Below, piece after piece: positions 16,067 through 54,079 of a stretch of 64,000 nucleotides of DNA. How positions within the stretch are numbered: position 1 is the first letter of the stretch; each line of letters starts with the position of its first letter. The stretch is from Acidobacteriota bacterium (GTDB taxonomy: Bacteria > Acidobacteriota > Thermoanaerobaculia > Multivoradales > Multivoraceae). Location of the stretch: assembly GCA_039026915.1 (NCBI GenBank), contig JBCCLJ010000011.1, forward strand, positions 72 to 64,071. Reading direction: 5' to 3'. The notes under the pieces are model-generated. The model was not told the DNA's origin. It did not search any database and was given only the letters and a program-made list of their open reading frames with translations. Made by a program: the position numbers and the translations under genes.

Positions 16067-16083
<17 letters not shown>
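14995..16083 (+). CDS. YVTN-family beta-propeller repeat protein (secreted)
   Basis: ATG 14995 is preceded by AGGAGG (14984-14989). The repeats are of YVTN type: SPDGRVIYVNRV, SKDGRYVFVPL, SHDGKRLYVGS, SPDGKTLLSAGS, SKDGTFAYVSN. Confidence 0.7.
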
Positions 16084-17595
<1,512 letters not shown>

Positions 17596-17599
<4 letters not shown>

Positions 17600-34540: not shown

Positions 34541-36285
34541 TTCTTCGTTGTCTTCTGCTCGCCGTCCTCGTGGTCCGGCCGGCGTCTGCTGCCGAGGAGC
34601 GCGACGCCGATGTTCTGAAGCGACTTCGCGTCGGACACTGGATCGAAGTGCGCGGCGTGCTCGAGTCGGACGTTTTCGAGGCGGACCGTCTGGAGCTGCG
34701 TGCCCCCGATGACCGACCGTCTCTCTGGGGCGTCCTGGAGGAGGAGAACGGCCGACTGGTGCTTCTCGGTCGATCCATCGAGTCGGGACCTTGGACCGTT
34801 TGGCGTGGCGGCGATCCGACTCGGTGGGTCGGATCGCGAGTGAAGATCGTCGGCTCTCGTGCGCCCGATGGGCAGCTCTGGGCTCACGAAGTGCAGGGCA
34901 AGAGGGCTGGCGTCGAGCGCCTGGTCGGGCGCATTGACGAGCTCGAGCGGCTCCGTGACGGTCGTCTGAAGCTCGAGGTGCTCGGCTTCGAGGTTCTCGT
35001 GCCGGAAAGCGTGCGGCAACGCTCTGCCGGAGATCCGCGCCTGCATCGCCGCGTGCCGCCGCAGGCCCTGCGCTCGCCGAGCTCGCAGTTCGTCGACGGC
35101 GACGATCTTTTCGGCGAAGGCTACGTCGTCGGGGATCGCGCGCACATCGGCCTTCAGCAGCAGCTCGCCTTCACCGATCGCTCGAACTTCGAGCTCGATG
35201 AGCGTGACGATACGGACATCGATGACGACGACGATCGCCGCGATTCGTCGCACTCGTTGAGGGCTCGGCTGCTCTGGCGGCCCGGCGCACGCTTCGAAGC
35301 GGTCGTCGACGGCTCGGCGCGAACACGCCATCGGGATCTCGGTGACGGCGGAGAGGTGTCCTCTCGCCTGCGCCTGAACGAGGCCTTTCTCGTTGCGCGT
35401 AACGTCGGTTTCGGTCTCGATCTGCAGGTCGGTCGGCAGGACCACGACGACATCAGGGAGTGGCTCTTCGACCAGAACCTCGACGGCGTCAGGCTGTTCC
35501 GAGACACGCGGCGCCTGCGGCTTCAGCTGTCGGCGAGCACGACCCTGAGCGGCGGATCGGCTCGGGACCGAGACGCCTTCAACACGATCTTCTACGTCTC
35601 CAACCAGGCCCCTCGCCGGCACCTGGCCGCTTACCTCGTCGACCGCCGCTTCGGTGGTGGTCGAGACGAGATCCAGACGCACGTCGGCGCACGGTTCTTC
35701 GGACCGCTGGCCGCCGGCTGGCGCGGTTGGCTCGAGCTGTCCGCTCTCGACGGGCGCCGCGACGGTCGTCCGGTCCGAGCCTTCGGTGGTGATCTGGGGC
35801 TGACGTGGAGCTCGCGATCTCCCCGTCGTTGGACGACCACTTTCGGTTTCGCGCACGGTTCTGGTGACCGCGGCGGCAGCTACGACGGCCGCTTCCGGCA
35901 GACCGGCCTCCAGGACAACAACGGGCGCGTCGGGGGCCTGACCGCCGTGCGCTACTACGGTGAGATCTTCGATCCGGAGCTCACCAACCTCCAGATCGCA
36001 ACGATCGGCTTCGGGATGCGACCCCTGCGCCGAACGTCGGTCGAGATCCTCGCGCATCGCTACTGGCAGGACGTTGCGACGCGCACGCTCGGCAACAGCG
36101 ACCTCGACCGTCGTGCCAACGGGGTCGACCGCGATCTCGGTTGGGAGGTCGATCTCGTGCTCGGCTTGCGTCGCTACCGACGCTGGGACCTGGAGCTGGT
36201 TTTCGGGCGCTTCGAGCCCGGGCCGGCCCTCGAGGGCGGCGACGCCGCCCATCTTGCAAACCTACAGGTGCGGCTTCGCTACTGA
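34537..36285 (+). CDS. outer-membrane protein, alginate-export (AlgE-like) family barrel with N-terminal OB-like extension
   Basis: ATGA overlap with the hydrolase. Signal peptide MILRCLLLAVLVVRPASAAE. Blocks LQVGRQDHDDIREWLFDQNLDGVRLF, FRQTGLQDNN and DLGWEVDLVLGLRRYRRWDLELVFGRFEPG fit my recollection of the Alginate_exp family. C-terminus …LQVRLRY. Confidence 0.6.
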   Translation: MILRCLLLAVLVVRPASAAEERDADVLKRLRVGHWIEVRGVLESDVFEADRLELRAPDDRPSLWGVLEEENGRLVLLGRSIESGPWTVWRGGDPTRWVGSRVKIVGSRAPDGQLWAHEVQGKRAGVERLVGRIDELERLRDGRLKLEVLGFEVLVPESVRQRSAGDPRLHRRVPPQALRSPSSQFVDGDDLFGEGYVVGDRAHIGLQQQLAFTDRSNFELDERDDTDIDDDDDRRDSSHSLRARLLWRPGARFEAVVDGSARTRHRDLGDGGEVSSRLRLNEAFLVARNVGFGLDLQVGRQDHDDIREWLFDQNLDGVRLFRDTRRLRLQLSASTTLSGGSARDRDAFNTIFYVSNQAPRRHLAAYLVDRRFGGGRDEIQTHVGARFFGPLAAGWRGWLELSALDGRRDGRPVRAFGGDLGLTWSSRSPRRWTTTFGFAHGSGDRGGSYDGRFRQTGLQDNNGRVGGLTAVRYYGEIFDPELTNLQIATIGFGMRPLRRTSVEILAHRYWQDVATRTLGNSDLDRRANGVDRDLGWEVDLVLGLRRYRRWDLELVFGRFEPGPALEGGDAAHLANLQVRLRY

Positions 36286-41012: not shown

Positions 41013-41015
41013 AGG

Positions 41016-41771
41016 CTATCTACGCGAGCGGGAACGCCGCTTGGCGGGAGCGGGCTTCCGAGGCCTGCGACGGTTGCCACCGCGCTCGGTCTTTTCAGCG
41101 ACGAGAACGGCGTGGCGAAAGCCCTTGCCGCGCTTCTCGCCGCTCTTGTCGGCGCCGAAGTGGCCGCGCGCCTGCTCGAGCCGCGCCTCGAAGCCGGCCT
41201 TCTGCAGGTGGCGTACGAAGAGCGGCTCGGCCTGCGCGCACCAGATGGCGAGGATGCCGCCCGGGGCCAGATTGTCGCGGAGGCGCTCGAGACCGCGACG
41301 GTCGTAGAGGCGGCTGTTACCGTCGAGGCACCAGGCCTGAGGCCCGTTGTCGGTGTCCATCAGGATAGCGTCCCAAGGCCCCTGGCCGATCGGCACCCAG
41401 ACGTCGGACTGCGCGATGCGCGTGCGCGAGTCCGTCAGGGCTCCACGCTGGCGATCGTTGAGGAACTCGCGGTTCCACTCGACGACCTCGGGCACGATCT
41501 CGGCGACGGTCACCGTGGCCTGCGGGCCGACCTGATCGAGCGCCGCGCGCAGCGTGTAGCCGAGCCCCAGCCCGCCGACGAGCACGCGCGCTCCCGGCTT
41601 CTTCTTGGCGGCCGCGCAGCCCAGGTCGGCAAGCACGACCTCGGAGCCGTGCACGCGCGTCGACATGAGCTCCTGGCCGTCGAGGGTGAGGTGATAGTCG
41701 TCGCCGCGACGACGCAGCTGAAGCAGAGAACCGTCGACCGTCGCGCGGCCGAGCTCTTCGAGCGGTTGCAT
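41016..41771 (-). CDS. spermidine-synthase-fold (class I SAM-MTase-like) protein with poly-basic C-terminal tail
   Basis: The start was trimmed to ATG 41771 (MQPLEEL…). GxGxG block VLVGGLGLGYTLRAAL and DAILMDTDNGP are typical of the spermidine-synthase-like family. The tail is …RGGNRRRPRKPAPAKRRSRSRR. Confidence 0.65.
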   Translation of the reverse strand: MQPLEELGRATVDGSLLQLRRRGDDYHLTLDGQELMSTRVHGSEVVLADLGCAAAKKKPGARVLVGGLGLGYTLRAALDQVGPQATVTVAEIVPEVVEWNREFLNDRQRGALTDSRTRIAQSDVWVPIGQGPWDAILMDTDNGPQAWCLDGNSRLYDRRGLERLRDNLAPGGILAIWCAQAEPLFVRHLQKAGFEARLEQARGHFGADKSGEKRGKGFRHAVLVAEKTERGGNRRRPRKPAPAKRRSRSRR

Positions 41772-41806: not shown

Positions 41807-44800
41807 TTAGGGCACTTCGATCTCGACGGTCTCGCCCGGGAGGATCTGAACCTCGATGCGAGCAACGATCTCGTCGGTTGGATAGGTGTGGAGTTCGAGT
41901 GTCCACAGGCCGGGTGGTAGCGGCCCAAGTGGCTGGTGTCCTTCCCGGCTCGTGTAGAAACGCTCCGGGTATCTGACATCGCCGCGACGCGCGAGCACGG
42001 AGCCGCCAAAGCCGACGCTGCCCAGCTTGAGTCGCGCCCATCCGGCGGGTTCCAGTGGCACGCTCGTCTCTCCGGGCACTTCTACGCGGAGGGGGCCACC
42101 GACCTCAGCTCCAGTGGAGACCCAGAGTAAGTAGCTGCCCGGGCTCACACTGAGCTCGTGCGTTCCTGTCGTCCTTGTCTCGAGCCGGATCTGATCGATA
42201 TCCCGCTGCAGCCAATAGATGGCGGTCGGTGGCGTCGCCCCGCTGGCCGAGATCGGCGTTGCAAGGAGCGTTTCTTGGGCCGTGAACTCGATCTGCAGAG
42301 TCTCGCCCTCGGCGTGGGGAATGCGTTTCGTTCCGAAGACCGGGTGCCGCGCCTCGACCCAGGGATAGTCCGCGGCTGTGAGTTCGCCGAGCCTTCTAGC
42401 TTGCAGGAGACCCTCCGGACCGGACTCACCTAAGGCGACTTTGCGGTCGGAGGTGCTGACCAGAAAGATCGCGGCGCCTTCGAGGCCGACCCCTTCGGAA
42501 TCCAGAACCCGGACACGGAAGGGCGCCGTCGTGAGGTCGATCGAAAGCTCGAGATCTCCTTGCAGATCGACCACCTGTCGCTTCTCCAGCTTGGGTAACT
42601 CCGTGTTGACATGGATGAGCGCTGGACCTTCTTCCAGACCGCTGAGTGCGAAGGCCCCGGATTCGTCCGTCCGGGTGCCAGTCCCGGTGCTGTTGTCGGT
42701 ATTGCGGCCGTAGACCTCAGCGTTGCGAGCTGGTTCACCGTCGACGGTGACGATGCCGTGCACGGTGAAGCCGGCGCTGAAGTCGAGGTCGAGCCCGCGC
42801 AGATCCCCTTCGACTTCGATCTCACGCGTCACGTGCCGCTCGCCTTCGAGATAGGCGAAGAGTCTCCAGAGCCCTCGGCTGACGTTCTGAAGAACGAAGT
42901 CTCCCTGATAGCCAGGCGTCGTCTCCGGGTACGCCCCGCCAATGTTGATCGAGGCGAGGGGCGTAACGCCGATCCTGACCTTTTGCGCCAGATCGGCGTC
43001 GAGTCCGAGGACGCGTCCCTCGAGGCTGAATCCACGTTCGAGGACGACCTCGACGTCGAGGGCCCCAGCTCCCCGGAGTCGAAGCTCAGGCAGGTTCGGG
43101 TTGCCGAAGCCATCCTTGACGACGCGGAGGCGCGCCCACCCCGGCTCGAGACTAGTGATCTCAAAGGAACCGTCGGCTGCGGAGAATGCGTTGTAGCTTC
43201 CTCCGCTCCACTCGCGCCGGTCTTGGCTCGTCATGGCGTCCAGATAGACGCCTTCGACGGGCTCTCCGTTCTCATCGACCACGACACCTGTGATGCGTAA
43301 GCCAGGAACTAGCTCGACGTCGAAGCGGTCGTCGCCGCGGACATTGAGTGCCGAACTGTCCTTCCGGTAGCCCTCCGCTGAAGTCTCTAGAACGACCTTG
43401 CCTTCGGGAACGGCAGCGAGACGGTATCGACCTTCGCCGTCGGTCTGTGTGTGCGACGCGGTCTGTGCTCCGGGTGACCAGCGGTCGACGTCACTTCTTC
43501 TTGCGGCGACGTGCGCACCCGAGATCGGTTCGCCTGCAGCGGTGACACTTCCTGTGATCACTGCGCCGCGTTCGAGAGAGATCTCTAGCGGGGCGATTCC
43601 CCCTGCTTCGACCTCCAGCTCCACCACGGTCGGCACGTGCTCCCTGGCTTGCACTTGAAGCGAATGAGGTCCGATTCCTGCCGGGCCGATCTCGAAGCGT
43701 CCGTCGCTCTGTCCATTAGCCCAACCGATCTGGGAGTAGCTCAGACGGCCGTGAAGGCTCTCCACCTCATGGAGCGACAAGCCTGCGGGGATGCCCTCGC
43801 CGTCTGCGCCACGGACGATCCCCCTGATCATCACTCCGCGATCGAGTCGAAGCTCCAACGGCTCCGTGAGAGGAAGCTCAACGTCGATCGGCTCGATCTG
43901 GAGATAGCCCTTCGCTTCAACTTGCACGGCGTAACTCCCCCGGCCAAACCGATCGAATCTGAAGCTGCCGTCAGCAGCGCTCGTCGCGGCTCTGTAGTCG
44001 TCGCGGTAGCCTGGGCTATTGCGGTTAGGGTAGGCAGACAGTTGAGCTCCCTGGATTGGATCGCCTGATGCGTCCAAAACTCGTCCGGCTAACAGAAGCT
44101 CTGGATCGAGCCGCAACGTTCCGATTTCTTGCTGATCGCCTTCGAGCTCTATCCCGGCCACCGTTCCAGGTGCGAATCCGGTGGCCAGGGCGTGGAGTCG
44201 AAACCGGCCAGGGCGCTCCGGCGGAAGCTCGAAGAGCCCGCTCGAATCGGTGTTGGTCCTTCGGACAATCTCAGGTTCGGGAGACCAGTAGATTGGCGTC
44301 GAACGGCTTTCTTCCCTTTCTAGCCAGACCTCGGCGTTGGGCAAAGGGCGATTCTGCTCATCCACGATGGTGCCCCAGCCGACGAGCCCATCTTCGAGCG
44401 TTGTCGTTACGCTAGTTTCACCTTCGGGGCCAATCGTCAGCGAGATTTCAGCGGTGACGTAGTCCAGATGCTCGATTCGAAGGAGGTGAGCTCCGTCGCT
44501 CACGGACCTCAGTTCGACTCGCCCCGTCTGGTTCGTTTCTCGGGATCGCGGTCGTCCGCGAAGCCTGCGTTGATCGCGTGGCCATAGGGTAGCCACGGCA
44601 CCGCCGACGTTCGCGCCGCGAGTATCCATCACCCGAAGAGCGATGGTGCGGCGTGGATCAAGGGCAACCGTTCGGGCGTCGCTGTCGGCGCTTTGAACCG
44701 AAAGGTAAGCCTCGCTGTAGCCCCTGGCTGCGGCCGTGAGCCCGAGGCCTTGGCTCGACATCCACGTGGGCAGCTCGTAGCGTCCGTCAGGGCCGGTGAT

Positions 44801-45853
44801 TGCGACGTCGCTGACGCGCATTCGCGACCAGATCAGCGCGCCTGGGAGCGGGTCGCCCGTCGAGCGATCGACGACCTTGCCGTAGAGAACGGCCGGCGGC
44901 TTGAGCCCCAAAGTGAGGTCTTGCTCGCGACCGCCCGGAGGCACCGTGACGTTGCCGTAGCCGAGGTCCGCCGCCTCTACCTGGTAGTCGAGCCTCCGAT
45001 CCTTCGCCGCGGCGACGGCCGCACGACCTTGCTCGTCGGTCAGCGCCACGGGAACGAGCGACTCGCCGAAGCGTACGACGGCTTGGTCAACGGGATGTCC
45101 ACCTTTGCCCGTTACCTGAATCTCTTGCAGCGCGCCGCGCTCGAGCTCTACGGTGACGACGCCACGCCCGTTCGACGGCACGCTGCGCGGTAGGAATCCC
45201 GGAGCGGCGACGCGCACCGGGTGACTCGCGCCTCGCAGAGAGGGAGCCGCTACGTGCCCGGTCTCGTCGGTCCTGCCGTGCCAACGGCTAAGGCCCACGG
45301 CGGGCTCGACGCGCACCGAGTCACCTTGTGGCCGCACCCACTGCTCCGTGTCGACGAGAACCAGAGCCTCTTCGATGGGCTTCCCTTCGTGGTCGACCAC
45401 CTTCACCGTCAACTCCCTGGCGCGGGGCAGTGGAATCTCGGAGAGCACGAGGTCTTCGACGATCGCTCCGAGCTCGGCGCGCACGCGAAGGCCGGACGCC
45501 GTGACCGCGTCGAGCCGGTAGACCCCCGGTATGACGTTGGCTTCGAATCGCCCGTCCTTGTCCAACTCGAAGCTCGTTCCTTCGTCTTCCATCCTGGCGA
45601 CCCCGAGGTCGTGCAGGCGCCGCAGATGACTCGGTGGCGACGGCATGAGGTGCACCGTGGCAGAACCCGGCTGGCCCGCCGCGTCGACGAAACGTCCGCT
45701 GATGCGAACGGTCTCCTGAGCCAAGACCGGGGTCCAGAGGAGAGCAATCGCGAGGGCTACGACGCGCACCGTGGTCCAACGTCCGCGTAGCCGGGCGCGG
45801 AGTCTGTGAGCCCTTCCTCCTCGAGCCCTTGCGAACGCTCCCACCATTCTCAT
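41807..45853 (-). CDS. giant secreted protein of ~15 carboxypeptidase-regulatory-like (CarboxypepD_reg) repeats, paralogue 1
   Basis: 1348 aa with an ATG start and signal …VVALAIALLWTPVLAQE. The repeating pattern is GxVxDxxGxP(I/V)xGA…TDxxGxF…LxPGxYxL…GF. Confidence 0.85.
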   Translation of the reverse strand: MRMVGAFARARGGRAHRLRARLRGRWTTVRVVALAIALLWTPVLAQETVRISGRFVDAAGQPGSATVHLMPSPPSHLRRLHDLGVARMEDEGTSFELDKDGRFEANVIPGVYRLDAVTASGLRVRAELGAIVEDLVLSEIPLPRARELTVKVVDHEGKPIEEALVLVDTEQWVRPQGDSVRVEPAVGLSRWHGRTDETGHVAAPSLRGASHPVRVAAPGFLPRSVPSNGRGVVTVELERGALQEIQVTGKGGHPVDQAVVRFGESLVPVALTDEQGRAAVAAAKDRRLDYQVEAADLGYGNVTVPPGGREQDLTLGLKPPAVLYGKVVDRSTGDPLPGALIWSRMRVSDVAITGPDGRYELPTWMSSQGLGLTAAARGYSEAYLSVQSADSDARTVALDPRRTIALRVMDTRGANVGGAVATLWPRDQRRLRGRPRSRETNQTGRVELRSVSDGAHLLRIEHLDYVTAEISLTIGPEGETSVTTTLEDGLVGWGTIVDEQNRPLPNAEVWLEREESRSTPIYWSPEPEIVRRTNTDSSGLFELPPERPGRFRLHALATGFAPGTVAGIELEGDQQEIGTLRLDPELLLAGRVLDASGDPIQGAQLSAYPNRNSPGYRDDYRAATSAADGSFRFDRFGRGSYAVQVEAKGYLQIEPIDVELPLTEPLELRLDRGVMIRGIVRGADGEGIPAGLSLHEVESLHGRLSYSQIGWANGQSDGRFEIGPAGIGPHSLQVQAREHVPTVVELEVEAGGIAPLEISLERGAVITGSVTAAGEPISGAHVAARRSDVDRWSPGAQTASHTQTDGEGRYRLAAVPEGKVVLETSAEGYRKDSSALNVRGDDRFDVELVPGLRITGVVVDENGEPVEGVYLDAMTSQDRREWSGGSYNAFSAADGSFEITSLEPGWARLRVVKDGFGNPNLPELRLRGAGALDVEVVLERGFSLEGRVLGLDADLAQKVRIGVTPLASINIGGAYPETTPGYQGDFVLQNVSRGLWRLFAYLEGERHVTREIEVEGDLRGLDLDFSAGFTVHGIVTVDGEPARNAEVYGRNTDNSTGTGTRTDESGAFALSGLEEGPALIHVNTELPKLEKRQVVDLQGDLELSIDLTTAPFRVRVLDSEGVGLEGAAIFLVSTSDRKVALGESGPEGLLQARRLGELTAADYPWVEARHPVFGTKRIPHAEGETLQIEFTAQETLLATPISASGATPPTAIYWLQRDIDQIRLETRTTGTHELSVSPGSYLLWVSTGAEVGGPLRVEVPGETSVPLEPAGWARLKLGSVGFGGSVLARRGDVRYPERFYTSREGHQPLGPLPPGLWTLELHTYPTDEIVARIEVQILPGETVEIEVP

Positions 45854-45860
45854 CGGCAGC

Positions 45861-48800
45861 TCAGGGCACTTCGAGTTCGATGGTCTCGCCGGCGAGGATC
45901 TGCACCTCGAGGCGGGCGGTCACTTCGGTGGTTCCCAGCGGAATCACCTCCAACGTCCACAGACCCGGTGGGAGAGGCCCGACCGGCTGTGAGCCCGCGG
46001 CATCGGCGTAGAAGGGCTGTGGGTGCCGAAGCTCGCCGCGACGCGCGATGACGCGAGCCCCGAACGCGGCGCTCCGCGACTTCAAGCGCGTCCAACCTCC
46101 ACTTTCGAGCTGCACGGTGGCCTCGCCGGGCACGGCCACGCTCACCGGGCCGGCCACCTGAGTTCCGGCGCTGCTCCAGAGCAGGTAGTTGCCGGGAGGT
46201 GCCTCCAGAGTCGCCGAAGCGCCGCCCTGCGATCCTCCGGGAAAGGAGATTTCGCCCCGCTGCAGCCAAAACGCCGTCGGTGGAGGAGTCCCTTCGATGC
46301 TGCTCGTGATCGAGATTCGCAGCGCCTCCTGCTGTCCCAGGCGAATCTCGACCGTCGGCTCACCGCTCAACATCGCCCGGCCTGATCCGAGCGTCGGGTG
46401 ATCGACTGCGAGCGTGTTCCCCTGCCGGTTCTGATCGGTTTGCAGTCTCGCGGAAAGCGCTCCATTGGCTCCGGTGAGGCCGAGCTGAGACTGCGTCCCG
46501 AGATCCGAGATCAGCAGGACGGATGCTCCCTCGACAGGAGCCCCGTCGCCGCGGAGAACAACCACGTTGAGAGCGGTCGTGGTGAGGTCGATCGAAAGAT
46601 CGACGTCGCTCTGCAAGTCGATCGTGTCGACGTGCTGCAGAACGGGATCCTCCGTGCTCAAACTGATCTGGATCGGACCCGCCTGGAGTCCCTCGAGCTC
46701 GAAGATCCCCGAGGAATCGACTTCCGCCGAGGTCGCGGACGTCTGGTCCAAGCTGCCCGCATAGATGTGGCCGGAGGCCGGCTGCCCGTCGACGTTGATC
46801 GTGCCGCGCAGGACGAGCCCTGCGCCGAAGTCGAGCTCCACGTCGTCGATGTCCCGGTCGACCTCGAGATTCCGCCCCAGAACCCTGCCGGTTTCTTGGA
46901 AAGAGGCGGAGAGTCTCCAGTCACCGCGGCTGACGTTCGGCATGGAGAACCCTCCCTGGTAGTCGAGCGTCGCTTCGCGGTAGTTCCGGCCAAACTGGCT
47001 GACTCCCGTGGCGAACATGTTCAGGCGGATCAGGGCGTATTGATCGGGCTCGAGGCCGAGGATGCGGCCCGACACCGTAAACCCTCGATCGAGCACGATC
47101 TCGAGATCCGGAGCACTCTCGCGGAGCTCGATCTCTGGAACGGTGGGGGTTGCAAATCCCTCCTTCGACACTTCGAGCTGCGCCCAGCCAGGCTCCAATC
47201 CGCCGATCTCGAAGGCTCCGTCCGGGCCACTGAAGCCTTGGTGCTGACCGCCGCTCCAGCTCGATCGATCTTTGCTGACCATCGCTCGAACGAGCGCGCC
47301 GACGACCGGGTCGCCCGACTCATCGACGATGCGCCCCGTCACGCGCAGGCCCTTGTAGAGCTCGAGGTCGAAGCGTCGGTCGCCGCTGATGTCCAGGTTG
47401 TGAACCGTGGGCCGGTAGCCGTCGGCCGCCGCGGTGATCGTCATTTCGCCGTTCGGAACACCCGTGAGGCGGTAGCGGCCCTCGCCGTCGCTCTGGGTCG
47501 CGGCGCTCGGTCCGAGCATGCGCTGAAGAGTCAGCTCTTCCGCGCCGGTCGGGTTGACGCTCACCTGGGCTCCGGCGAGCGGTAGACCGTCGCCGGTGAC
47601 CGTTCCTGAGAAGACGGCTCCACGCTCCAGCGAAATGTCAATGGGGTCGGGGGCCTCGCCGCGGACCTCGACATCGACCAGGCGCTGCATGTGATCGACG
47701 GCGTTCACCATGAGCACGTGCCTTCCCTGCGTCGCCGGAGCGATCTCGAAGGTGCCGTCCGCCTCACTTCGCACCGTGGCGCGCTGCTTGGGAAACTCGT
47801 AGGGCTCGTTGGAGAGATCGATCCAGTAAAGGCCGACGTGCGCCGCAAGTCCTTCGCCGTTCTCGCCGCGGACCGTTCCCCGAAGGGCCAGGCCGCGCTC
47901 GAGGCGAACCTCGAGAGGTTGATCGAGTGGCAGGCTGATCTCTTGCGATTCGGGCCTGACGAATCCTCGAGCTTGGACACCCCAGACATACCGACCTCGT
48001 CCTATACGGTCGATTTCAAAGGTGCCGTCTTCGGCCGATGCTGCTGACTTCGAAGCGGGCGGCTGGCTCCTTCGGAAGTCCGCTTCCCGTAGGAAGAGAG
48101 TCGCTCCCGGGACGGGCTGGCCCTCTTCGTCGAGGATCCGACCTGAGAAGAGGGCTGCGGGCTCGAGTGTCAGCGTGCCGATCTCCTGGTCGTCGAACTC
48201 GAGCTCGAAGCCGTGGACTCTTCCTGGAGCGAAGCCGTCGGCCTCGGCGAACAGGTCGTAGCGTCCGGCCGCGACCGGCGCCAGATCGAAGCGGCCTTCG
48301 AGGTCGGTGATCGACTTCCGCGTTCCGGCGGAGGAATCAAAGACCCCGCTCCGTCTGTAGGTCGTCTCGGGTACCAGCCAGACCTCGACGCCGGCCAGCG
48401 GTTGGTTGTCCATGTCGAGGACGGTTCCCCATCCAGCGACGCCGTTCGGCAGCGTCACCTCGATCGTCTCTCGGATGTCCGGACCGAGAGTCAGGTCCGC
48501 CTCTGCGACGGCGTAGTCCGGATGTTCGACGAGCGCGACGTAAGAGCCCTGGCGCATTCCTCGCAAGGCGATGCGACCCTCCTCGTCCGTCGGGTTGGGC
48601 TTGGGTTGACTACGCATGGAGCTTCGATCGCGGGGCCACACGGTGACCAGGGCTCGCGGGACGCTCTCTCCGAGCTCGTTGCGAACGAGGAGTGTGATCG
48701 AGCGGTTCGGCTCCAGAGCCACCGTCGGCGCCTCGCCCGCGACGTTTCCCATGGAGGTGTTCTCGGAACTGTAGAGCTGCGCAGCGACGCCGAGGCGGAT

Positions 48801-49829
48801 GCCCCGGCTCGATGTCCACGTCGGCAGCTCGTAGCGGCCGTCGGGATCGGTCGTCGCGAAGTCGCTCGGGCGGTCGAGCGACCAGACGAGCGCTCCCGCG
48901 ACCGGGTCGCCACTCGTTCGATCGATGACCTTGCCGAAGAGCGAAGCGGGCGGCTCGAGTCGGACCTGCAGCGACTCTTCGGTGCCGCGAACCGGCGTTC
49001 TGAAGCCGCTGTAGCCCAGGTCTCCAGACTCGACCTGGTAGTCGAGGATGCGATCGGTGGCTGCGGTGACCGTTGCCCTGCCTTGGTCGTCGGTGACGGC
49101 GACGGGCACGAGCGACTCGCCGAAGCGCACGACAGCGCGGGCTACGGGGCGGCCACGCTCGTCCGTGACGGTCACACGCTGAGGCGCGCCGCGCTCGAGC
49201 TCGACCGTCACCGCGCCGCGCCCGTTCGACGGAACCCCGCGCGGCAGGAAACCATCCGCCGCGACGCGCACCGGGTGATTCGCTCCGGGAAGCGCTGGGG
49301 CGGCGACGCGACCGCCCTCGTCGGTCCTGCCGTGCCAGCGGCTCACACCTACTGCCGGCTCTTCGCGTTCGGAGCTTCCCTGCGGGCGGACCCACTGCTG
49401 GGTGTCAACCAGGACGAGGGCGTTCTCGATGGGCTGACCTGCGTCGTCGACGACGCGAATCGACAGCTGCGTCGCGCGCGGGAGCGCGATGTCGGCCAGA
49501 GCGAGATCGTCGACGACGACGCCGAGATCGGTACGCGGTCGCAGCCCCGAGGGCGTTGCGATGTCGACGCGGTAGATGCCTGGAGGCACTTCCACCTCGA
49601 GCCGGCCGTCCGGGCCGAGCTCGAAGCTCGTTCCTTCGTCCTCCATCTTGGCGACGCCGAGGTCGTGCAGCCTCCGCAGATGACTCGGAGGTGACGGCAT
49701 CAGGTGCACCGTAGCCTTTGCCGGCTGACCTGCTGCGTCGACCAAGCGCCCGCTGATGCGGACCGACTCCTGAGCAAACGAAGGGAAGCATAGCGTCGCC
49801 AGGACGAGCGCTGCAGCGCTCGTTCGCAT
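45861..49829 (-). CDS. giant secreted CarboxypepD_reg-repeat protein, paralogue 2
   Basis: The track ORF begins at GTG 49895. ATG 49829 gives the clean signal peptide MRTSAAALVLATLCFPSFAQE. It is collinear with paralogue 1 along its whole length, and the stop lies 7 nt upstream of the paralogue 1 start. Confidence 0.8.
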   Translation of the reverse strand: MRTSAAALVLATLCFPSFAQESVRISGRLVDAAGQPAKATVHLMPSPPSHLRRLHDLGVAKMEDEGTSFELGPDGRLEVEVPPGIYRVDIATPSGLRPRTDLGVVVDDLALADIALPRATQLSIRVVDDAGQPIENALVLVDTQQWVRPQGSSEREEPAVGVSRWHGRTDEGGRVAAPALPGANHPVRVAADGFLPRGVPSNGRGAVTVELERGAPQRVTVTDERGRPVARAVVRFGESLVPVAVTDDQGRATVTAATDRILDYQVESGDLGYSGFRTPVRGTEESLQVRLEPPASLFGKVIDRTSGDPVAGALVWSLDRPSDFATTDPDGRYELPTWTSSRGIRLGVAAQLYSSENTSMGNVAGEAPTVALEPNRSITLLVRNELGESVPRALVTVWPRDRSSMRSQPKPNPTDEEGRIALRGMRQGSYVALVEHPDYAVAEADLTLGPDIRETIEVTLPNGVAGWGTVLDMDNQPLAGVEVWLVPETTYRRSGVFDSSAGTRKSITDLEGRFDLAPVAAGRYDLFAEADGFAPGRVHGFELEFDDQEIGTLTLEPAALFSGRILDEEGQPVPGATLFLREADFRRSQPPASKSAASAEDGTFEIDRIGRGRYVWGVQARGFVRPESQEISLPLDQPLEVRLERGLALRGTVRGENGEGLAAHVGLYWIDLSNEPYEFPKQRATVRSEADGTFEIAPATQGRHVLMVNAVDHMQRLVDVEVRGEAPDPIDISLERGAVFSGTVTGDGLPLAGAQVSVNPTGAEELTLQRMLGPSAATQSDGEGRYRLTGVPNGEMTITAAADGYRPTVHNLDISGDRRFDLELYKGLRVTGRIVDESGDPVVGALVRAMVSKDRSSWSGGQHQGFSGPDGAFEIGGLEPGWAQLEVSKEGFATPTVPEIELRESAPDLEIVLDRGFTVSGRILGLEPDQYALIRLNMFATGVSQFGRNYREATLDYQGGFSMPNVSRGDWRLSASFQETGRVLGRNLEVDRDIDDVELDFGAGLVLRGTINVDGQPASGHIYAGSLDQTSATSAEVDSSGIFELEGLQAGPIQISLSTEDPVLQHVDTIDLQSDVDLSIDLTTTALNVVVLRGDGAPVEGASVLLISDLGTQSQLGLTGANGALSARLQTDQNRQGNTLAVDHPTLGSGRAMLSGEPTVEIRLGQQEALRISITSSIEGTPPPTAFWLQRGEISFPGGSQGGASATLEAPPGNYLLWSSAGTQVAGPVSVAVPGEATVQLESGGWTRLKSRSAAFGARVIARRGELRHPQPFYADAAGSQPVGPLPPGLWTLEVIPLGTTEVTARLEVQILAGETIELEVP

Positions 49830-49952
49830 CGCGCGACCGAAGCGCGCTCCGCGTCCTCGTTCGAATCCAGAACCCGCGCTCGACGGACGTCGCACTCCAC
49901 ACCCCCTCTGGCTCGTTTTGTCCCTCAGACTCTAGCGGTTGTCGAGTAAGCC

Positions 49953-52900
49953 CTACGGAATCTCGACGTCGATCGTTTCTCCAGCGACGACGTCGACGGC
50001 GATCTGCCGCGTCGTTCCGTCGACGAGATCGGTGACCTCGAGCGTCCAACGTCCGGGCGCGAGCGGCCCGGAGCGCTGGCCGTCCTGGTGGCCGAAGTGA
50101 CCCACCGCTGGATGCGCCTGGCCGGCATGGCGACCGACGATCGAGTCCCAGCCCGAGGCCGATCGGCCGGTGAGTCGCACGAAGCCTCCAAGCTCGAGCT
50201 GCAGCGTGATCTCGTCGCGCGGAAGCTCGACCCACCTCGGGCCCGCTTGGCTTCGCCAGCTCTGACCCCAGAGGAGGTAGCGCCCTGGCGGAACCTTCAG
50301 CTCTGCGGGCTGGGAGGCTTCCACGTCAAGAGTCTCCACGCTGAAGCCGTTGCCTTGGAGGAAGATCTGCCCGATCGTCGGCGCCCGTCCGTCGGTCTCG
50401 ACCAGACGCACGCGTGTGGACGCATGTGGTTCCAGGACGATCACGGCTCCCGTCTCGCCTTCGGGCAGCACGACCCGGCCGGTCCCCTTGTCTCGATGTC
50501 GCGCCAGCACCTGGATCGGGCCGGGCGGCCGGTCCGGGAGGAGGATGATTGCGGTCCCGTCGGTGCTGGTGCCGCTCTCTCGCCTCGGAGTGCCGCCTCG
50601 AGAATCGAGCGTCCAGAGGCCGGCGCCTGCGACGGGCCGGCCGTCCGCGTCTTCCACGAGCACGGTCAGTCGGTGCGACGTCAGTTCGATCTCCAGATCG
50701 ACGTCGCTGAGGAGGTCGAGGCGTTCGAGGTGGCGCGCACCGCCGGCGGTCACGACGAGGTCGACCGTCCCCGACGGAGCCTCGACCTCGAATCGTCCCT
50801 GGGCGTCGGCGGTGGTCACGTTCTCTCCCGACGCGCCGAGCACGCGGACCGTGGCCCCGGGAGCCGGAGATCCGTCGAGCTCGACCGTGCCGCGGACCTC
50901 GACAGTGTCGTCGAACGCCAGCTCGATGCCGGTGAGGTCGCCGTCGACGTCGATCTGCTGCTTGACGAAGCGACGCGTGCTCTCGACGCTAGCCCGAAGC
51001 TGCCACAGCCCGGGGGCCGTCTCCTCGAGAAGGAAGCTGCCATCTTCGGCAACGCTCACCCTTCCGAAGTGCGCGAAGTTGGCGTCGGTTCCCTGCATGC
51101 CGTGGGCCGTGAGCTTTGCTTCCGCGAGCTCGTTCTCGGAAAGGCCGGTGATTCGGCCGCGCACCGTGAAGCCTCGCGAAAGCTCGATCTCGACGCCCTC
51201 GATGTCGCGGTCGACGAGCTCGAGGACCGTCGAGCTCCCCTTGGCGAAGCCCTCTTTCTCGACTTCGATCTGGAGATAGCCGGGCCCCAATGCGTCGACG
51301 ACAAATCGACCGTCTCGATCCGTCGGTGGGTCTTGGACTCTCATCACGCTGTGCCAGGACTTGAGGCCCGCGCTGTGCCTCTGGATCCAGACGGCGCCTT
51401 CCACCGGGTCCCCGCGGTCGTCGATGACCCTGCCCGAGACGGAGAAGCCGCGGGAGAGGGTGAAGGTCTCGTTGCTGCCGGCTCGGACGCCGACCTGCCG
51501 CCGCACCGGGAGGAAGCCATCGGCCTCGACGGACACTCGATATTCGGCGTTCTTCAGTCCGGTGAGCATGAACCGGCCGGAGACGTCGCTCGTGACCGGG
51601 TTGCGGAGCACATCGGAGGCGCGCGCGTCGCTGTCCGCCGAGACGCGCGCTCCAGGGATGGGCTGCCCGCTCTCGTCGAGGACCTGGCCTTCGAGTGAAA
51701 TCCCCTCTTCGAGCACGACGTCGATCTCGAGCGTCTGCGCTTCTTCGCTGCCCGCGAGAGGCATCGTCGTCCCCTGGAAGCCGTCCGCGTCAAAGGCGAT
51801 CCGCAGGCCCTCTTGGGGTCGAACCGATGGCAGCTCGAAGCGTCCCTGCTCGGCCACGACCCAGGCGCCGCCGTGGAATCGGCCGTACCCCTTGGCACCG
51901 CTGACCAGGGCGACGCGAGCGACGAGAGGAGTGCCCTCGGAGGATTCGACGCGTCCGCGAACGAGGAGTCCCTCGTGCAACCGGACGACGAGCTCGCCTT
52001 CGATTGGCAGTTCGCGGCGCTCGAAGGTCGTCGCATAGCTCTCCGCTTTGACGACGATCTGGTGCGCACCGGCTGAAAGACCCTCGAAGGTACGACCTCC
52101 CTGCGCATCGGTCTGCGCGCTGACCCGCTTCCAGCGGCCTGGCCCTCCGGGACCCTGGTCAGTCACGCTCACTTCGGCCCCGGCGATCGGCTCGTCGTCC
52201 ATCGTGAGCACTCGGACCGGTAGGCGCTGGCCCCGCTCCAGTCGGAAGGTGCCGAGCCCCTGCTCCTCGGCTTCCACCAGGTCGACCATCGCTTGCCGTC
52301 GGGCGAAGCCCTCGTGCTCGAAGAGGACCTCGTAGCGGCCCGGCGCGAGCGCGCCCGTCTGGAAGTCGCCGTTCCCGTCGCTGACGGTCTCCGAGACCGC
52401 ACGCTCCTCCAAGAGAAGCCTGCGTCCCCTGGGCTGCATCAGCTTCGAGAGCGTGATCGTCGTTCCTTCGAGGGGCCGCTCCTCCGCATCGACGACGCGG
52501 CCTTTGCCGCGGAAGCCGTCTCGAAGAACCACTGTCAGAGTGGGACGAAGATCATCGGCGGCCAGAGTCAAGGGGACCGTCGCCACAGCAAAGTCGGGGT
52601 GCGTCGCTCGGACCCGGTACGAACCGGGCACGAGACCTTCCACCGTGGTTTTGCCTTCGCTGCCGGAGACGGATGTCTTGACGGACCGGGACCTCCAGGC
52701 GGTCGGCCGCACCTCGACGTTTGCCCCGGAGATCCGTGTGCCGTCGGGCGCCAGCACGGTGATCGTCGCGGCGCAGGTTCGGGCGAGGGCGATCGGCGTC
52801 GAGCGCTCGCCGAAGCTCTTGGCGTCTCCCTGGTCGTAGCCGGCCGCGACGGCGACGACGTCGAGGGGCTGCGCCGCAGACCGGGTGTCGATCTCGAACC

Positions 52901-54044
52901 GCCCCTTCCCATCGGCCCGCCGCCAGTCCTCGGGGCGTCCGCGCGGCCAGACGACCGCGTGGGGAATCGCGGTGCCGCGATCACGATCGATGACGTTGCC
53001 GCGGATCGTCAGCGATGGATCGAGTCGGACGATCGACGTTTCCGAGTCGATCTCGCGCCCTGAGGAGTGCCCGGGAGAGCTCACTCGGTAGAGGAGCGGC
53101 TCGTTGCCGAAGGGCAGAGTGGCGTAGCCGTCGGAGTCGCTCTGGGCGACGACGGTGCCTCCAAGGTCGAAGCGAGCCTGGGGAAGCGGGCTCTTCTGCG
53201 CGGACTCGACCCGTATGCGCAGAGGGCGCGCGGCTTCGAGTTGCAGCGTCGCGGATCCGTCGGGTCTCAGCTTCTCCCAGAGAGGCGCCTTGCCCGGGGC
53301 CGTGACGCCGACCCGATGAGAAGCCTCCTCGGCCAGCCAGACGCGGCACCGACCGTCCGCGTTCGTCAGCACGGTGTGCTCGGCGACCGACTCGAGAATG
53401 CGTCGTACGGAGTACATGCGCCCGAAGAACTGCGGCAGCGGCTCGCCACCCCATCGCGAAACGACGTGGACGCGCGCCCTCGGAATGGGCTTGCCCTCGC
53501 CGTCGACGATGCGGAGCCCGCGGTAGCGACCTTTCGGCGGGACCCAGGGCTCGAGCTGCGTATCCTGCACCAGCGGTCCCAGCGGCCGCCGCACGATCGA
53601 GCCGCTCGAGAGGGCGATCTCGACCACGTAGCGCCCCGGCGGCAGCTCGGCCTCGAAGCGGCTCGTGGCCGGCGCGCCCAGCAGGTCCTCATCATCGTCG
53701 GCGGACAGGGCACCCTCCTCGGCGATCAGGAGCGGCAGCTCGACGGCGCGACCTTCCGAATCGATCAGGCTCCCGGAGAGGCGGATCGTGTCGCTCGAAG
53801 CCGCCATCGCCGGAAACGACAGCGCCAGAAGCAGAGCGCATGCTGTTAGCCTGTCGCAGATTTCCGCCAGACGCCGTTGCAACGGGGTAGGACCCCCGAT
53901 GCTTTGCTCGGTCGGTGGGATCGAGGGGGCCGAGAGAGACGATGTTGCGCGCGCCAGTGGCCGGCTACCGGCCGCTCTGATTCGGTACTCGCGCGGGCTC
54001 CGCATCGCCATTCTCCTCACTCCCGTCCAGCTCCCCGTCGTCAT
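49953..54044 (-). CDS. giant secreted CarboxypepD_reg-repeat protein, paralogue 3 (more diverged)
   Basis: 1363-aa ORF from ATG 54044. The hydrophobic signal (LTACALLLALSFPAMAA) sits ~65 aa in, so the true start may be internal (for example in-frame TTG at 53882). It has the same repeat architecture and a conserved C-terminus …GETIDVEIP. Confidence 0.75.
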   Translation of the reverse strand: MTTGSWTGVRRMAMRSPREYRIRAAGSRPLARATSSLSAPSIPPTEQSIGGPTPLQRRLAEICDRLTACALLLALSFPAMAASSDTIRLSGSLIDSEGRAVELPLLIAEEGALSADDDEDLLGAPATSRFEAELPPGRYVVEIALSSGSIVRRPLGPLVQDTQLEPWVPPKGRYRGLRIVDGEGKPIPRARVHVVSRWGGEPLPQFFGRMYSVRRILESVAEHTVLTNADGRCRVWLAEEASHRVGVTAPGKAPLWEKLRPDGSATLQLEAARPLRIRVESAQKSPLPQARFDLGGTVVAQSDSDGYATLPFGNEPLLYRVSSPGHSSGREIDSETSIVRLDPSLTIRGNVIDRDRGTAIPHAVVWPRGRPEDWRRADGKGRFEIDTRSAAQPLDVVAVAAGYDQGDAKSFGERSTPIALARTCAATITVLAPDGTRISGANVEVRPTAWRSRSVKTSVSGSEGKTTVEGLVPGSYRVRATHPDFAVATVPLTLAADDLRPTLTVVLRDGFRGKGRVVDAEERPLEGTTITLSKLMQPRGRRLLLEERAVSETVSDGNGDFQTGALAPGRYEVLFEHEGFARRQAMVDLVEAEEQGLGTFRLERGQRLPVRVLTMDDEPIAGAEVSVTDQGPGGPGRWKRVSAQTDAQGGRTFEGLSAGAHQIVVKAESYATTFERRELPIEGELVVRLHEGLLVRGRVESSEGTPLVARVALVSGAKGYGRFHGGAWVVAEQGRFELPSVRPQEGLRIAFDADGFQGTTMPLAGSEEAQTLEIDVVLEEGISLEGQVLDESGQPIPGARVSADSDARASDVLRNPVTSDVSGRFMLTGLKNAEYRVSVEADGFLPVRRQVGVRAGSNETFTLSRGFSVSGRVIDDRGDPVEGAVWIQRHSAGLKSWHSVMRVQDPPTDRDGRFVVDALGPGYLQIEVEKEGFAKGSSTVLELVDRDIEGVEIELSRGFTVRGRITGLSENELAEAKLTAHGMQGTDANFAHFGRVSVAEDGSFLLEETAPGLWQLRASVESTRRFVKQQIDVDGDLTGIELAFDDTVEVRGTVELDGSPAPGATVRVLGASGENVTTADAQGRFEVEAPSGTVDLVVTAGGARHLERLDLLSDVDLEIELTSHRLTVLVEDADGRPVAGAGLWTLDSRGGTPRRESGTSTDGTAIILLPDRPPGPIQVLARHRDKGTGRVVLPEGETGAVIVLEPHASTRVRLVETDGRAPTIGQIFLQGNGFSVETLDVEASQPAELKVPPGRYLLWGQSWRSQAGPRWVELPRDEITLQLELGGFVRLTGRSASGWDSIVGRHAGQAHPAVGHFGHQDGQRSGPLAPGRWTLEVTDLVDGTTRQIAVDVVAGETIDVEIP

Positions 54045-54079
54045 CGTAGCTGCTCTGACCCCAACGACAAGGACACCTC

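What the first reader, a model, noticed from the sequence alone, without database searches (positions are those of the whole stretch)
41807..54044. Tandem triplication of ~1350-aa secreted proteins built almost entirely from carboxypeptidase-regulatory-like repeats
Three consecutive minus-strand ORFs of 1348, 1344 and 1363 aa occupy about 12 kb of the window. The gaps between them are only 7 nt and 57-123 nt.

Each has an N-terminal signal peptide followed by ~15 units of ~85-95 aa. The units show the pattern GxVxDxxGxPxxGA … TDxxGxF … LxPGxYxL … GF, the CarboxypepD_reg/transthyretin-like beta-sandwich signature.

All three share a non-repeat C-terminal ~170 aa with conserved strings (PPGxYLLW, GPLPPGLWTLE) ending GET(V/I)(E/D)(I/L/V)E(V/I)P. 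Copies 1 and 2 are still alignable at DNA level. Copy 3 is more diverged, so duplication happened at least twice.

I see no TonB-dependent barrel, peptidase domain, thioester motif or known sorting signal (LPXTG, PEP-CTERM, T9SS CTD). That leaves these very large exported proteins without an obvious functional class.
Basis: partly seen in the sequence, partly recalled or inferred. Interest (0 to 1): 0.7.

Follow-up and report, generated by a model that had tools for sequence, protein, structure and literature searches.

The report
Three tandem 15-domain beta-sandwich exported proteins
Three neighbouring genes of an Acidobacteriota genome encode old, fast-evolving copies of one giant exported protein made only of 15 beta-sandwich domains; it belongs to a widespread, already annotated but unstudied family, so it is real and tidy but not a new kind of system.

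Summary
**Observation: confirmed.** Three intact minus-strand ORFs of 1348, 1344 and 1363 aa lie 7 nt and 57-123 nt apart. Each has a signal peptide followed by CarboxypepD_reg (PF13620) repeats (E about 1e-90).

There is no non-repeat C-terminal module.
- A repeat profile finds 14 units at matching positions in all three proteins, including the last about 70 aa.
- AlphaFold2 (pLDDT 92.6) shows the last 325 aa as four all-beta sandwiches.
- Each protein is therefore 15 domains and nothing else.

**History.**
- c1 and c2 are 49% identical. c3 is 27-30% identical to both.
- A related Thermoanaerobaculia MAG has a single copy at the syntenic locus.
- Another organism keeps the c3-type then c2-type order.
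- At least three other assemblies reproduce parts of the array (c3-c2 adjacency in two, c2-c1 in one). This makes it two old duplications, not a mis-assembly.

**Family.**
- About 1350-aa collinear relatives are common in Acidobacteriota. Most are solitary genes.
- One distant genome has its own tandem array with decayed copies.
- Invariant residues are only Gly and Phe. The mature proteins lack thioester, barrel, peptidase and anchor features.
- They diverge far faster than their neighbouring genes.

**Most likely role:** a non-enzymatic extracytoplasmic scaffold or surface protein. This is inferred, not shown.

**Closest solved relative by sequence:** eukaryotic NOMO, at repeat level only.

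**Verdict:** ordinary to moderately interesting.

The parts
41807..45853 (-). c1: 1348-aa paralogue. It has a signal peptide ending VLAQ|E and 15 beta-sandwich domains. NCBI calls it MEM6701669.1 with a shorter start (1305 aa).
   Evidence: GC3 is 0.718, lower than c2 and c3.
45861..49895 (-). c2: a 1344-aa ORF whose probable start is Met23 at 49829 (1322 aa). The signal peptide is MRTSAAALVLATLCFPSFAQ|E, followed by 15 beta-sandwich domains. NCBI calls it MEM6701670.1 from Met66, which cuts off the signal peptide.
   Evidence: AlphaFold2 models cover residues 23-1222 and 1020-1344.
49953..54044 (-). c3: a 1363-aa ORF whose probable start is the TTG at 53882 (1309 aa, matching NCBI MEM6701671.1). 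The signal peptide is (M)QRRLAEICDRLTACALLLALSFPAMA|A, followed by 15 beta-sandwich domains.
41810..42286 (-). c1 domains 14-15 (residues about 1190-1348).
   Evidence: Domain 15 matches the repeat profile at E = 3.8e-10. Domain 14 matches weakly through its SPGSYLLW strand.
45864..46340 (-). c2 domains 14-15 (residues about 1186-1344).
   Evidence: This stretch lies inside the AlphaFold2 model, which is all-beta with pLDDT 92.6. Foldseek matches it to tandem Ig/CnaB-type chains.
49956..50438 (-). c3 domains 14-15 (residues about 1203-1363).
53883..54079 (.). A 197-nt divergent intergenic region between the probable c3 start and the BamB-like propeller gene. It presumably holds the promoters; none was detected by the consensus scan.
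54080..56536 (+). A divergent 818-aa PQQ_2/BamB-like beta-propeller protein with a signal-peptide-like N-terminus. It is a conserved neighbour of the c3-type gene in a second organism (76% identical there). It is absent from the single-copy syntenic locus.
41016..41771 (-). A downstream 251-aa gene that starts 35 nt after the c1 stop codon. It has a weak spermidine-synthase-like methyltransferase fold. It is conserved (70% identity) after the single-copy gene in the relative.
38526..41012 (-). A downstream 828-aa protein that starts 3 nt after the 251-aa gene. Its only family hit is a weak Reg_prop match. It is conserved (66% identity) in the relative.

Best explanation
**What the genes are.** The three genes are paralogues of one ancestral gene. 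Each encodes a Sec-exported, strongly acidic, non-enzymatic protein. Each is an uninterrupted chain of 15 CarboxypepD_reg (transthyretin/prealbumin-like) beta-sandwich domains joined by short linkers. No other module is present.

**Family.** They belong to a widespread, uncharacterised family of about 1350-aa proteins in Acidobacteriota, mostly Thermoanaerobaculia. Domain order is fixed across that family.

**How the array arose.**
- A first duplication gave the c3 type and the c1/c2 type.
- A later duplication split c1 from c2.
- All three have stayed intact.

**Most likely role (inferred, not shown).** A structural or binding scaffold outside the cytoplasm, such as an envelope or surface rod, coat or fibre. 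Rapid sequence turnover and repeated tandem birth-and-death fit an exposed, interaction-driven protein.
For: **Shown: domain content.**
- PF13620 scores E about 1e-90.
- There are 14 profile-detected units per protein at matching positions, plus a weak 15th.
- The AlphaFold2 models are all-beta. The C-terminal 325 aa give pLDDT 92.6 and pTM 0.82. Residues 23-1222 give pLDDT 86.5 and pTM 0.78.

**Shown: export and composition.**
- The signal peptide is the only hydrophobic segment.
- Mature c1 and c2 have no Cys (c3 has two). Net charge is -34 to -59.

**Shown: no catalytic signature.** Among 59 aligned family members the invariant columns are 12 Gly and 1 Phe.

**Shown: family.** The search gave 194 hits. 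Many are 1300-1450 aa, 26-30% identical and cover 80-97% in a single collinear alignment.

**Shown: history.**
- c1-c2 are 49% identical; c3 is 27-30% identical to both.
- The NJ tree is ((c3,P0123),((c1,c2),P0124)), and this group is monophyletic.
- The syntenic locus of a Ca. Multivoraceae MAG has one copy.
- A second organism has PQQ_2 | c3-type | c2-type.
- Parts of the array recur in other assemblies: a 23,074-bp contig has c3, c2 and the start of c1, a 5,828-bp contig has c3 and c2, and further short contigs carry single copies.

**Shown: selection.**
- For c1-c2, pN is 0.34 against pS 0.63.
- Domains 1-2 are 75-77% identical with pS 0.5-0.6. This points to protein-level constraint, not recent gene conversion.

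**Shown: fast evolution.**
- c3 is 44% identical to its orthologue, while the adjacent propeller gene is 76% identical.
- c2 is 36% identical to P0124, while flanking genes are 65-70% identical.

**Shown: recurrent amplification.** An independent tandem array with truncated copies exists in a distant genome.

**Shown: structural neighbours.** These are tandem Ig/CnaB-type rods, stalks and adhesin extenders, plus NOMO by sequence.
Against: - No localisation, expression or binding data exist.
- No secretion or anchoring signal beyond the Sec signal peptide was found. Exposure beyond the periplasm is therefore an assumption.
- Gene neighbourhoods of family members are not conserved, so no partner system supports any role.
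- A pTM of 0.78 for 1200 residues is higher than I would expect for a floppy bead chain.
- Rapid divergence could equally reflect weak constraint on a spacer.
- dS is saturated (above 1), so the dN/dS values are unreliable.
Confidence: 0.6

Rival explanations
1. Periplasmic alpha-2-macroglobulin-like protease trap or other MG-domain defence protein.
For: - It is a large exported multi-beta-sandwich protein.
- There are weak Pfam MG4 and bMG3 hits.
- Bacterial A2M, TEP1 and complement proteins appear in the Foldseek lists.
- A trypsin-like protease gene lies about 4 kb upstream.
Against: - There is no CxEQ motif. c1 has no Cys at all.
- There is no helical thioester domain. The models are all-beta apart from a few short helices.
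- There is no lipobox.
- The MG hits are below Pfam cut-offs or have zero independent stretches.
- TM-score to Salmonella and E. coli A2M is 0.06-0.08.
Confidence: 0.04
2. NOMO-like fixed-length spacer. A rigid rod of tandem CarboxypepD_reg domains sets or bears load across a compartment, here the periplasm or envelope.
For: - Human NOMO2 is the best solved sequence relative of the family profile (E = 5.9e-35).
- NOMO is a rod of tandem Ig-like domains that acts as an ER-lumen spacer (PMC8327139).
- The family has a narrow length distribution and fixed domain order.
- The model has a high pTM.
Against: - The match is repeat-level, not collinear. One profile region hits several NOMO domains.
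- There is no transmembrane anchor or tail.
- My own estimate is that 15 domains fully extended would exceed typical periplasm width.
- Fast divergence and tandem paralogy are unusual for a ruler.
Confidence: 0.15
3. Secreted adhesin or carbohydrate- or particle-binding fibre, a surface-coat (S-layer-like) subunit. The three diverged copies would give different specificities or antigenic variants.
For: - The proteins are acidic and Cys-poor.
- They diverge fast compared with their neighbours.
- Tandem birth-and-death arrays recur.
- Foldseek neighbours are pilins, adhesin extenders, the SlaB S-layer stalk and the GhpA grappling hook.
- There is a weak hit to the Kustd1514 S-layer model.
Against: - There is no adhesive tip domain, no anchor and no dedicated secretion system nearby.
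- The Kustd1514 score is 44 bits against a cut-off of 1400.
- The fixed domain number contrasts with the variable repeat numbers typical of adhesins.
Confidence: 0.3
4. Assembly artefact: one gene expanded into three by mis-assembly.
For: None beyond the general risk for repeats in MAGs.
Against: - The copies are only 49% and about 28% identical in protein, and c3 is not alignable to the others at DNA level.
- Parts of the same order are seen on other contigs and assemblies: c3-c2 and the start of c1 on one, c3-c2 on another.
- An orthologous c3-type then c2-type pair exists in a different organism.
- There are no DNA tandem repeats.
Confidence: 0.01

Closest known systems
Eukaryotic NOMO (BOS complex subunit NOMO1/2/3; PDB 9c7v_B)
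   Same: - It is a long all-beta chain (more than 1200 aa) of tandem CarboxypepD_reg-type sandwiches behind a signal peptide.
- It is the best solved sequence relative of the family profile (E = 5.9e-35).
- It is non-enzymatic.
   Different: - NOMO is described with fewer domains: at least eight by negative-stain EM, about twelve from my memory.
- NOMO has a C-terminal transmembrane anchor and a cytosolic tail. These proteins have 15 domains and no anchor.
- The alignment is repeat-to-repeat, not collinear.
- NOMO does not appear among the top 50 Foldseek matches of the 1200-residue model.
Gram-positive CnaB/prealbumin-fold chains: BaTIE (6fwv), pilins (BcpA, RrgB, SpaD, PitA) and SdrD B repeats
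   Same: - These are the top Foldseek hits for both models.
- They share the tandem beta-sandwich rod architecture.
- Pfam SpaA and SdrD_B give weak hits.
   Different: - There is no LPXTG sortase signal and no thioester or adhesive A domain.
- The proteins are Lys-poor and no conserved Lys or Asn column was found that would support isopeptide bonds.
- The host is presumed to have two membranes.
- TM-scores are only 0.1-0.3.
Bacterial alpha-2-macroglobulin (ECAM/YfhM; 4u48, 4ziq)
   Same: It is a large exported protein dominated by beta-sandwich (MG) domains.
   Different: - These proteins have no thioester, no TED, no bait region and no lipobox.
- TM-score is 0.06-0.08.
TonB-dependent receptors with an N-terminal CarboxypepD_reg domain (SusC/RagA, Myxococcus Oar)
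   Same: They share the domain family. There are weak TIGR04056 and SusC hits over about 40 residues.
   Different: There is no plug and no 22-strand barrel. Scores are 25-29 bits against a cut-off of 368.
S-layer proteins with beta-sandwich stalks (anammox Kustd1514 family NF052345; Sulfolobus SlaB 8qox_B)
   Same: - They are acidic, exported, multi-sandwich proteins.
- Weak sequence and fold hits were found.
   Different: - The score is 25-44 bits against a cut-off of 1400.
- There is no coiled coil or transmembrane segment as in SlaB.
- No lattice evidence exists.

Membership tests
Pfam PF13620 CarboxypepD_reg domain proteins | Score above the gathering cut-off (32.3 bits), with multiple independent domain matches | tested here: met
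   All three proteins score 295-300 bits with 6-8 stretches. An iterated profile finds 14 units each.
The about 1350-aa collinear poly-CarboxypepD_reg family of Acidobacteriota (uncurated; NCBI name 'carboxypeptidase regulatory-like domain-containing protein') | A signal peptide followed by 13-15 sandwiches in fixed order, aligning end to end with other members | tested here: met
   - Relatives are 26-30% identical over 80-97% of the length. Lengths are mostly 1326-1410 aa.
- The 59-sequence alignment shows position-specific motifs.
- Domain counts are 12-15.
- C-terminal strand motifs are shared.
Bacterial alpha-2-macroglobulin | A CxEQ thioester within a helical TED domain | tested here: not met
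   There is no CxEQ and c1 has no Cys. The models are all-beta.
Bacterial alpha-2-macroglobulin | Global MG-ring architecture | tested here: not met
   Foldseek TM-score to 4u48, 4u4j and 4ziq is 0.06-0.08.
TonB-dependent receptor (SusC/RagA, Oar type) | Plug domain and C-terminal beta-barrel | tested here: not met
   There are no Plug or TonB_dep_Rec Pfam hits. TIGR04056 scores 25-29 bits against a cut-off of 368.
Sortase-anchored CnaB pilins/MSCRAMMs | A C-terminal LPXTG sorting signal with a hydrophobic tail | tested here: not met
   There is no LPXTG and no C-terminal hydrophobic segment.
Sortase-anchored CnaB pilins/MSCRAMMs | Intramolecular Lys-Asn/Asp isopeptide bonds | not testable with these tools
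   No conserved Lys column exists in the family alignment, and each protein has only 11-22 Lys. This argues against such bonds but is not a direct test.
Kustd1514 S-layer glycoprotein family (NF052345) | Whole-protein score above 1400 bits | tested here: not met
   Scores are 25-44 bits, covering only profile positions of about 1313-1472.
NOMO / BOS-complex subunit | A collinear domain chain plus a C-terminal transmembrane anchor | tested here: not met
   The match is non-collinear and repeat-level. The only hydrophobic segment is the signal peptide.
PEP-CTERM / T9SS CTD / other C-terminal sorting domains | A recognisable C-terminal sorting motif or domain | tested here: not met
   - The C-terminus is the last strand of sandwich 15 and ends ...GET(V/I)(E/D)(I/L/V)E(V/I)P.
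- There is no Pfam or NCBIfam sorting-domain hit.
- No PEP motif occurs near the C-terminus.

The most novel reading that the evidence does not exclude
The family is not a floppy bead chain. It is a fixed 15-domain assembly with a defined three-dimensional superstructure: pTM is 0.78 over 1200 residues, and no global PDB counterpart has a TM-score above 0.12. Under this reading it forms a so far unrecognised envelope coat, stalk or capture fibre of Thermoanaerobaculia and other Acidobacteriota. Tandem, rapidly diverging paralogues (c1-c3 here, and an independent array elsewhere) would provide surface variation. The c3 type would work together with the conserved divergent BamB-like propeller.
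Probability: 0.15. Interest if true: 0.55.

Novelty: new member of a known kind. Interest (0 to 1): 0.3.

Why it matters
- **Correction of annotation-level impressions.**
  - There is no special C-terminal module.
  - The PGAP start calls for c1 and c2 cut off the signal peptides.
  - JGI's 'protocatechuate 3,4-dioxygenase beta subunit' labels on relatives are probably domain-level mis-annotations.
- **A tractable family.** The work delimits a large, uncharacterised family of giant all-beta exported proteins in a poorly studied phylum. The family has fixed domain order, fast evolution and recurrent tandem amplification.
- **If the role is on the surface.** It would bear on how Acidobacteriota build or vary their surface.
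- **Limits.** Nothing here overturns current knowledge or opens a long-standing question. The function remains inferred.

Tried and rejected
1. **C-terminal module as its own family.**
   - A profile of the three C-termini was run against 1.84 billion representatives. It gave only 27 hits at E ≤ 1e-3.
   - The strong hits were the three copies themselves plus two relatives of the same clade (one an orthologue of c3). The rest were weak matches, about half of them at the C-terminal ends of about 1100-1400-aa proteins.
   - A phmmer search with the c2 C-terminus found only c1 and c3 among 120 homologues.
   - I rejected it as a separate module.
2. **Conserved gene neighbourhood.** Seven homologue contexts show no shared partner apart from close-relative synteny.
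3. **Downstream genes.** The 261-aa gene downstream in L002 is unrelated by eye to the window's 251-aa gene.
4. **Genome-collection scan.**
   - The 59-sequence alignment had no stretch conserved enough to search with.
   - The clade alignment found only the Multivoraceae MAG and one partial Planctomycetota match.
5. **Phage and defence libraries.** PHROGs gave only marginal unknown-function hits. PADLOC gave none.
6. **DNA-level signals.** There are no DNA tandem repeats of domain size. Promoter and terminator scans were at or below chance.
7. **dN/dS.** Synonymous sites are saturated (dS above 1), so only pN < pS is usable.
8. **Literature.** Five of six searches found nothing on this family; the sixth found only the NOMO papers.
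9. **Model coordinates.** They are not available in the sandbox, so rod versus compact shape could not be measured.

Full report
**1.

The window is about 66% G+C. It carries three consecutive minus-strand ORFs:
- 41807-45853, c1, 1348 aa.
- 45861-49895, c2, 1344 aa.
- 49953-54044, c3, 1363 aa.

The c2-c1 gap is 7 nt. The c3-c2 gap is 57 nt to the ORF's GTG, or 123 nt to Met23, which directly precedes a canonical signal peptide (MRTSAAALVLATLCFPSFAQ|E).

For c3, the divergent neighbouring gene starts only 35 nt from the ORF's first ATG. A TTG at 53882 precedes a good signal peptide, and NCBI's own call on this contig is 1309 aa.

The long plus-strand ORFs that overlap the three genes have the codon-position G+C pattern of antisense shadow frames. 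No other ORF in the window carries the repeat.

**2. What the proteins are made of**

- Pfam PF13620 CarboxypepD_reg matches each protein at E = 1e-89 to 4e-91, with 6-8 stretches passing on their own.
- All other Pfam hits are weak. They include CarbopepD_reg_2, Big_1, DUF4198, SpaA, SdrD_B, MG4, bMG3, NOMO1-like_2nd and PEGA. By my reading these are related sandwich families hitting the same stretches.
- NCBIfam gives nothing above any cut-off.
- A repeat profile iterated on the three proteins converged on 14 units per protein at equivalent positions. The last about 70 residues are among them, at E = 9e-7 to 5e-11.
- The one remaining gap (c1 about 1190-1277) aligns weakly through its 'PPGxYLLW' string to the repeat's 'lppGrYrl' strand.
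- AlphaFold2 on c2 residues 1020-1344 with a 38-sequence family alignment gave pLDDT 92.6 and pTM 0.82. The structure is all-beta and corresponds to four sandwiches.
- Foldseek matched that model to tandem Ig/CnaB-type chains such as BaTIE, Gram-positive pilins and adhesin extender repeats.

Each protein is a signal peptide plus 15 sandwiches and nothing else.

A second model, of c2 residues 23-1222 with 59 sequences, gave pLDDT 86.5 and pTM 0.78. It is all-beta apart from a few short helices.

**3. What is absent**

- There is no CxEQ, no LPXTG and no C-terminal hydrophobic segment.
- c1 has no cysteine, and c2's only Cys is in the signal peptide.
- There are no plug, barrel, peptidase or sorting-domain hits.
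- PHROGs and PADLOC give essentially nothing.
- In a 59-member family alignment the invariant columns are 12 Gly and 1 Phe. The near-invariant columns are almost all Gly, Pro, Leu, Val, Phe or Ala (the exception is the start Met). I read this as purely structural conservation and infer a non-enzymatic protein.
- The proteins are strongly acidic (net charge -34 to -59) and Lys-poor.

**4. History of the array**

- c1 and c2 are 49% identical over their full length and still align at DNA level. c3 is 27-30% identical to both, is collinear with them, and gives no blastn hit.
- A neighbour-joining tree of 42 full-length members gives ((c3,P0123),((c1,c2),P0124)) as one clade.
- P0124 sits in a Candidatus Multivoraceae MAG (Thermoanaerobaculia). 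Its locus is syntenic with the window:
  - The shared genes are Cu amine oxidase, MacB/FtsX, a trypsin-like protease, a phosphoribosyltransferase, a 204/212-aa gene, then the giant gene, then a 251/269-aa gene and a Reg_prop-like gene.
  - It has a single giant gene and no propeller gene.
- P0123 is 44% identical to c3. It lies on a contig from another sample, next to a divergent PQQ_2 propeller gene that is 76% identical to the window's. It is followed by the N-terminus of a c1/c2-type gene that is 70% identical to c2 and 63% to c1.
- The first duplication therefore predates the split of those organisms, and the c1/c2 split is later.
- Other assemblies reproduce parts of the array. A 23,074-bp contig carries c3, c2 and the start of c1; a 5,828-bp contig carries c3 and c2; and further short NCBI and Logan contigs carry single copies.
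- Together with the deep divergence of the copies, this excludes an assembly expansion.
- TRF finds no domain-sized DNA repeats.

**5. Selection and tempo**

- For c1-c2, pN is 0.34 against pS 0.63.
- Domains 1-2 are 75-77% identical although their synonymous sites are as diverged as elsewhere (pS 0.5-0.6). The N-terminal conservation is therefore protein-level constraint rather than recent gene conversion.
- Domain 15 (58%) and domain 10 (55%) are also above the 34-49% identity of the middle domains.
- dS is saturated, so I do not quote omega as meaningful.
- The giants evolve much faster than their neighbours. The comparisons are 44% against 76% (c3 orthologue against adjacent propeller) and 36% against 65-70% (c2/P0124 against flanking genes).
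- c1 has a lower GC3 (0.718) than c2 (0.785) and c3 (0.822). I cannot explain this.

**6. The wider family**

- The word-indexed search returned 194 proteins at E ≤ 1e-10.
- The best non-self hits are 1300-1450 aa, 26-30% identical and cover 80-97% of the query.
- Where named, they come from Acidobacteriota, Thermoanaerobaculia or Polarisedimenticolia MAGs.
- Shorter or partial matches come from Planctomycetota and Myxococcota.
- Family members share the N-terminal signal peptide and a C-terminus that is the last strand of a sandwich, for example '...PGVWSFTI...GSATVT.G...EV.LP'.
- Their domain counts with my profile are mostly 12-15.
- Seven neighbourhoods inspected show no common partner.
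- One 4.58-Mb contig carries an independent tandem array. It has three intact copies of 1234-1261 aa that are 41-57% identical to each other and about 26% identical to c1-c3. It also has a split copy, a truncated copy, and a further copy nearby.
- Tandem birth-and-death is therefore recurrent in the family.

**7. Comparison with known proteins**

- By sequence profile, the best solved relative is human NOMO2 (E = 5.9e-35). However, one profile region matches several NOMO domains, so this is repeat-level homology and not shared architecture.
- NOMO is a rod of tandem Ig-like domains proposed to space ER membranes. It too resembled BaTIE (PMC8327139).
- The 1200-residue model has no global counterpart in the PDB. 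TM-scores are at most 0.12, and 0.06-0.08 for bacterial alpha-2-macroglobulins.
- Literature searches found nothing on this family.

**8. Interpretation**

*Shown:* the identity as three old paralogues of a 15-sandwich exported protein, the family membership, the duplication order, and the absence of enzymatic, barrel, thioester or anchor features.

*Inferred:*
- I infer a non-enzymatic structural or binding role outside the cytoplasm.
- I favour an exposed envelope or surface scaffold. The reasons are the fast divergence, the acidic Cys-poor composition, the recurrent tandem amplification and the rod/stalk/pilin-like structural neighbours.
- A NOMO-like spacer role and a secreted adhesin or coat role are variants I cannot separate.
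- The alpha-2-macroglobulin and mis-assembly readings are effectively excluded.
- The unusually high pTM for so long a chain hints at a defined superstructure.

**9. Verdict**

This is a real and cleanly delimited paralogue array of an already annotated but uncharacterised protein family. It is a new member of a known kind, with modest interest.

Noticed in passing
L011:585-17705 (contig ctg21642c, 4.58 Mb, sample ERZ21861969): This contig holds an independent tandem array of the same family. It has intact copies of 1261, 1234 and 1236 aa that are 41-57% identical to each other. It also has a copy split into 520 + 339 aa, a 394-aa truncated copy, and a further 1290-aa copy nearby. This is birth-and-death evolution in a distant lineage.
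   Followed up: partly
window 54080-56536 (+); L004:124-2634 (-): An 818-aa PQQ_2/BamB-like beta-propeller gene lies divergent from c3. The pairing is conserved (76% identity) next to the c3 orthologue in another organism. The gene is absent from the single-copy syntenic locus L005. Residues about 346-818 have no family hit.
   Followed up: partly
window 45716-45853, 49698-49895, 53883-54044: The start codon calls differ between assemblies. On this contig NCBI calls c1 at 1305 aa and c2 at 1279 aa, and both calls remove the predicted signal peptide. Another MAG calls c2 at 1322 aa (Met23).
   Followed up: yes
window 41807-45853: c1 has a clearly lower third-position G+C (0.718) than c2 (0.785) and c3 (0.822). 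This is unexplained. It could be relaxed selection or faster drift in the youngest, most downstream copy.
   Followed up: no
c2 residues 23-1222 (window 46230-49829): AlphaFold2 gives pTM 0.78 for a 13-domain, 1200-residue chain, which is higher than expected for a flexible bead chain. The overall shape could not be examined because model coordinates are not exposed.
   Followed up: no
window 38526-41771 (-); L005:14235-17176: A 251-aa protein with a weak spermidine-synthase-like fold and an 828-aa protein with only a weak Reg_prop hit follow c1 at gaps of 35 nt and 3 nt. The same pair follows the single-copy gene in the Multivoraceae MAG (70% and 66% identity). They may be co-transcribed with the giants.
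   Followed up: partly
window 25445-28420 (+), 29032-30726 (+), 31841-33727 (+), 34309-36285 (+): Upstream there are four notable genes: a TPR-CHAT domain protein (about 990 aa), a subtilase S8, an ABC exporter, and an Alginate_exp-type outer-membrane protein. Their relation to each other was not examined.
   Followed up: no
window 2469-3875 (-), 3613-5244 (+), 16064-17599 (+): There are three separate beta-lactamase-family (PF00144) genes within 17 kb. Nearby are a DUF3500 gene, an amidase, a TetR regulator and an S15 peptidase-like hydrolase.
   Followed up: no
homologues P0010, P0017, P0019, P0022 and others: JGI names many family members 'protocatechuate 3,4-dioxygenase beta subunit'. This is probably a mis-annotation driven by the transthyretin-like N-terminal part of Dioxygenase_C (PF00775) matching the repeat.
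   Followed up: partly
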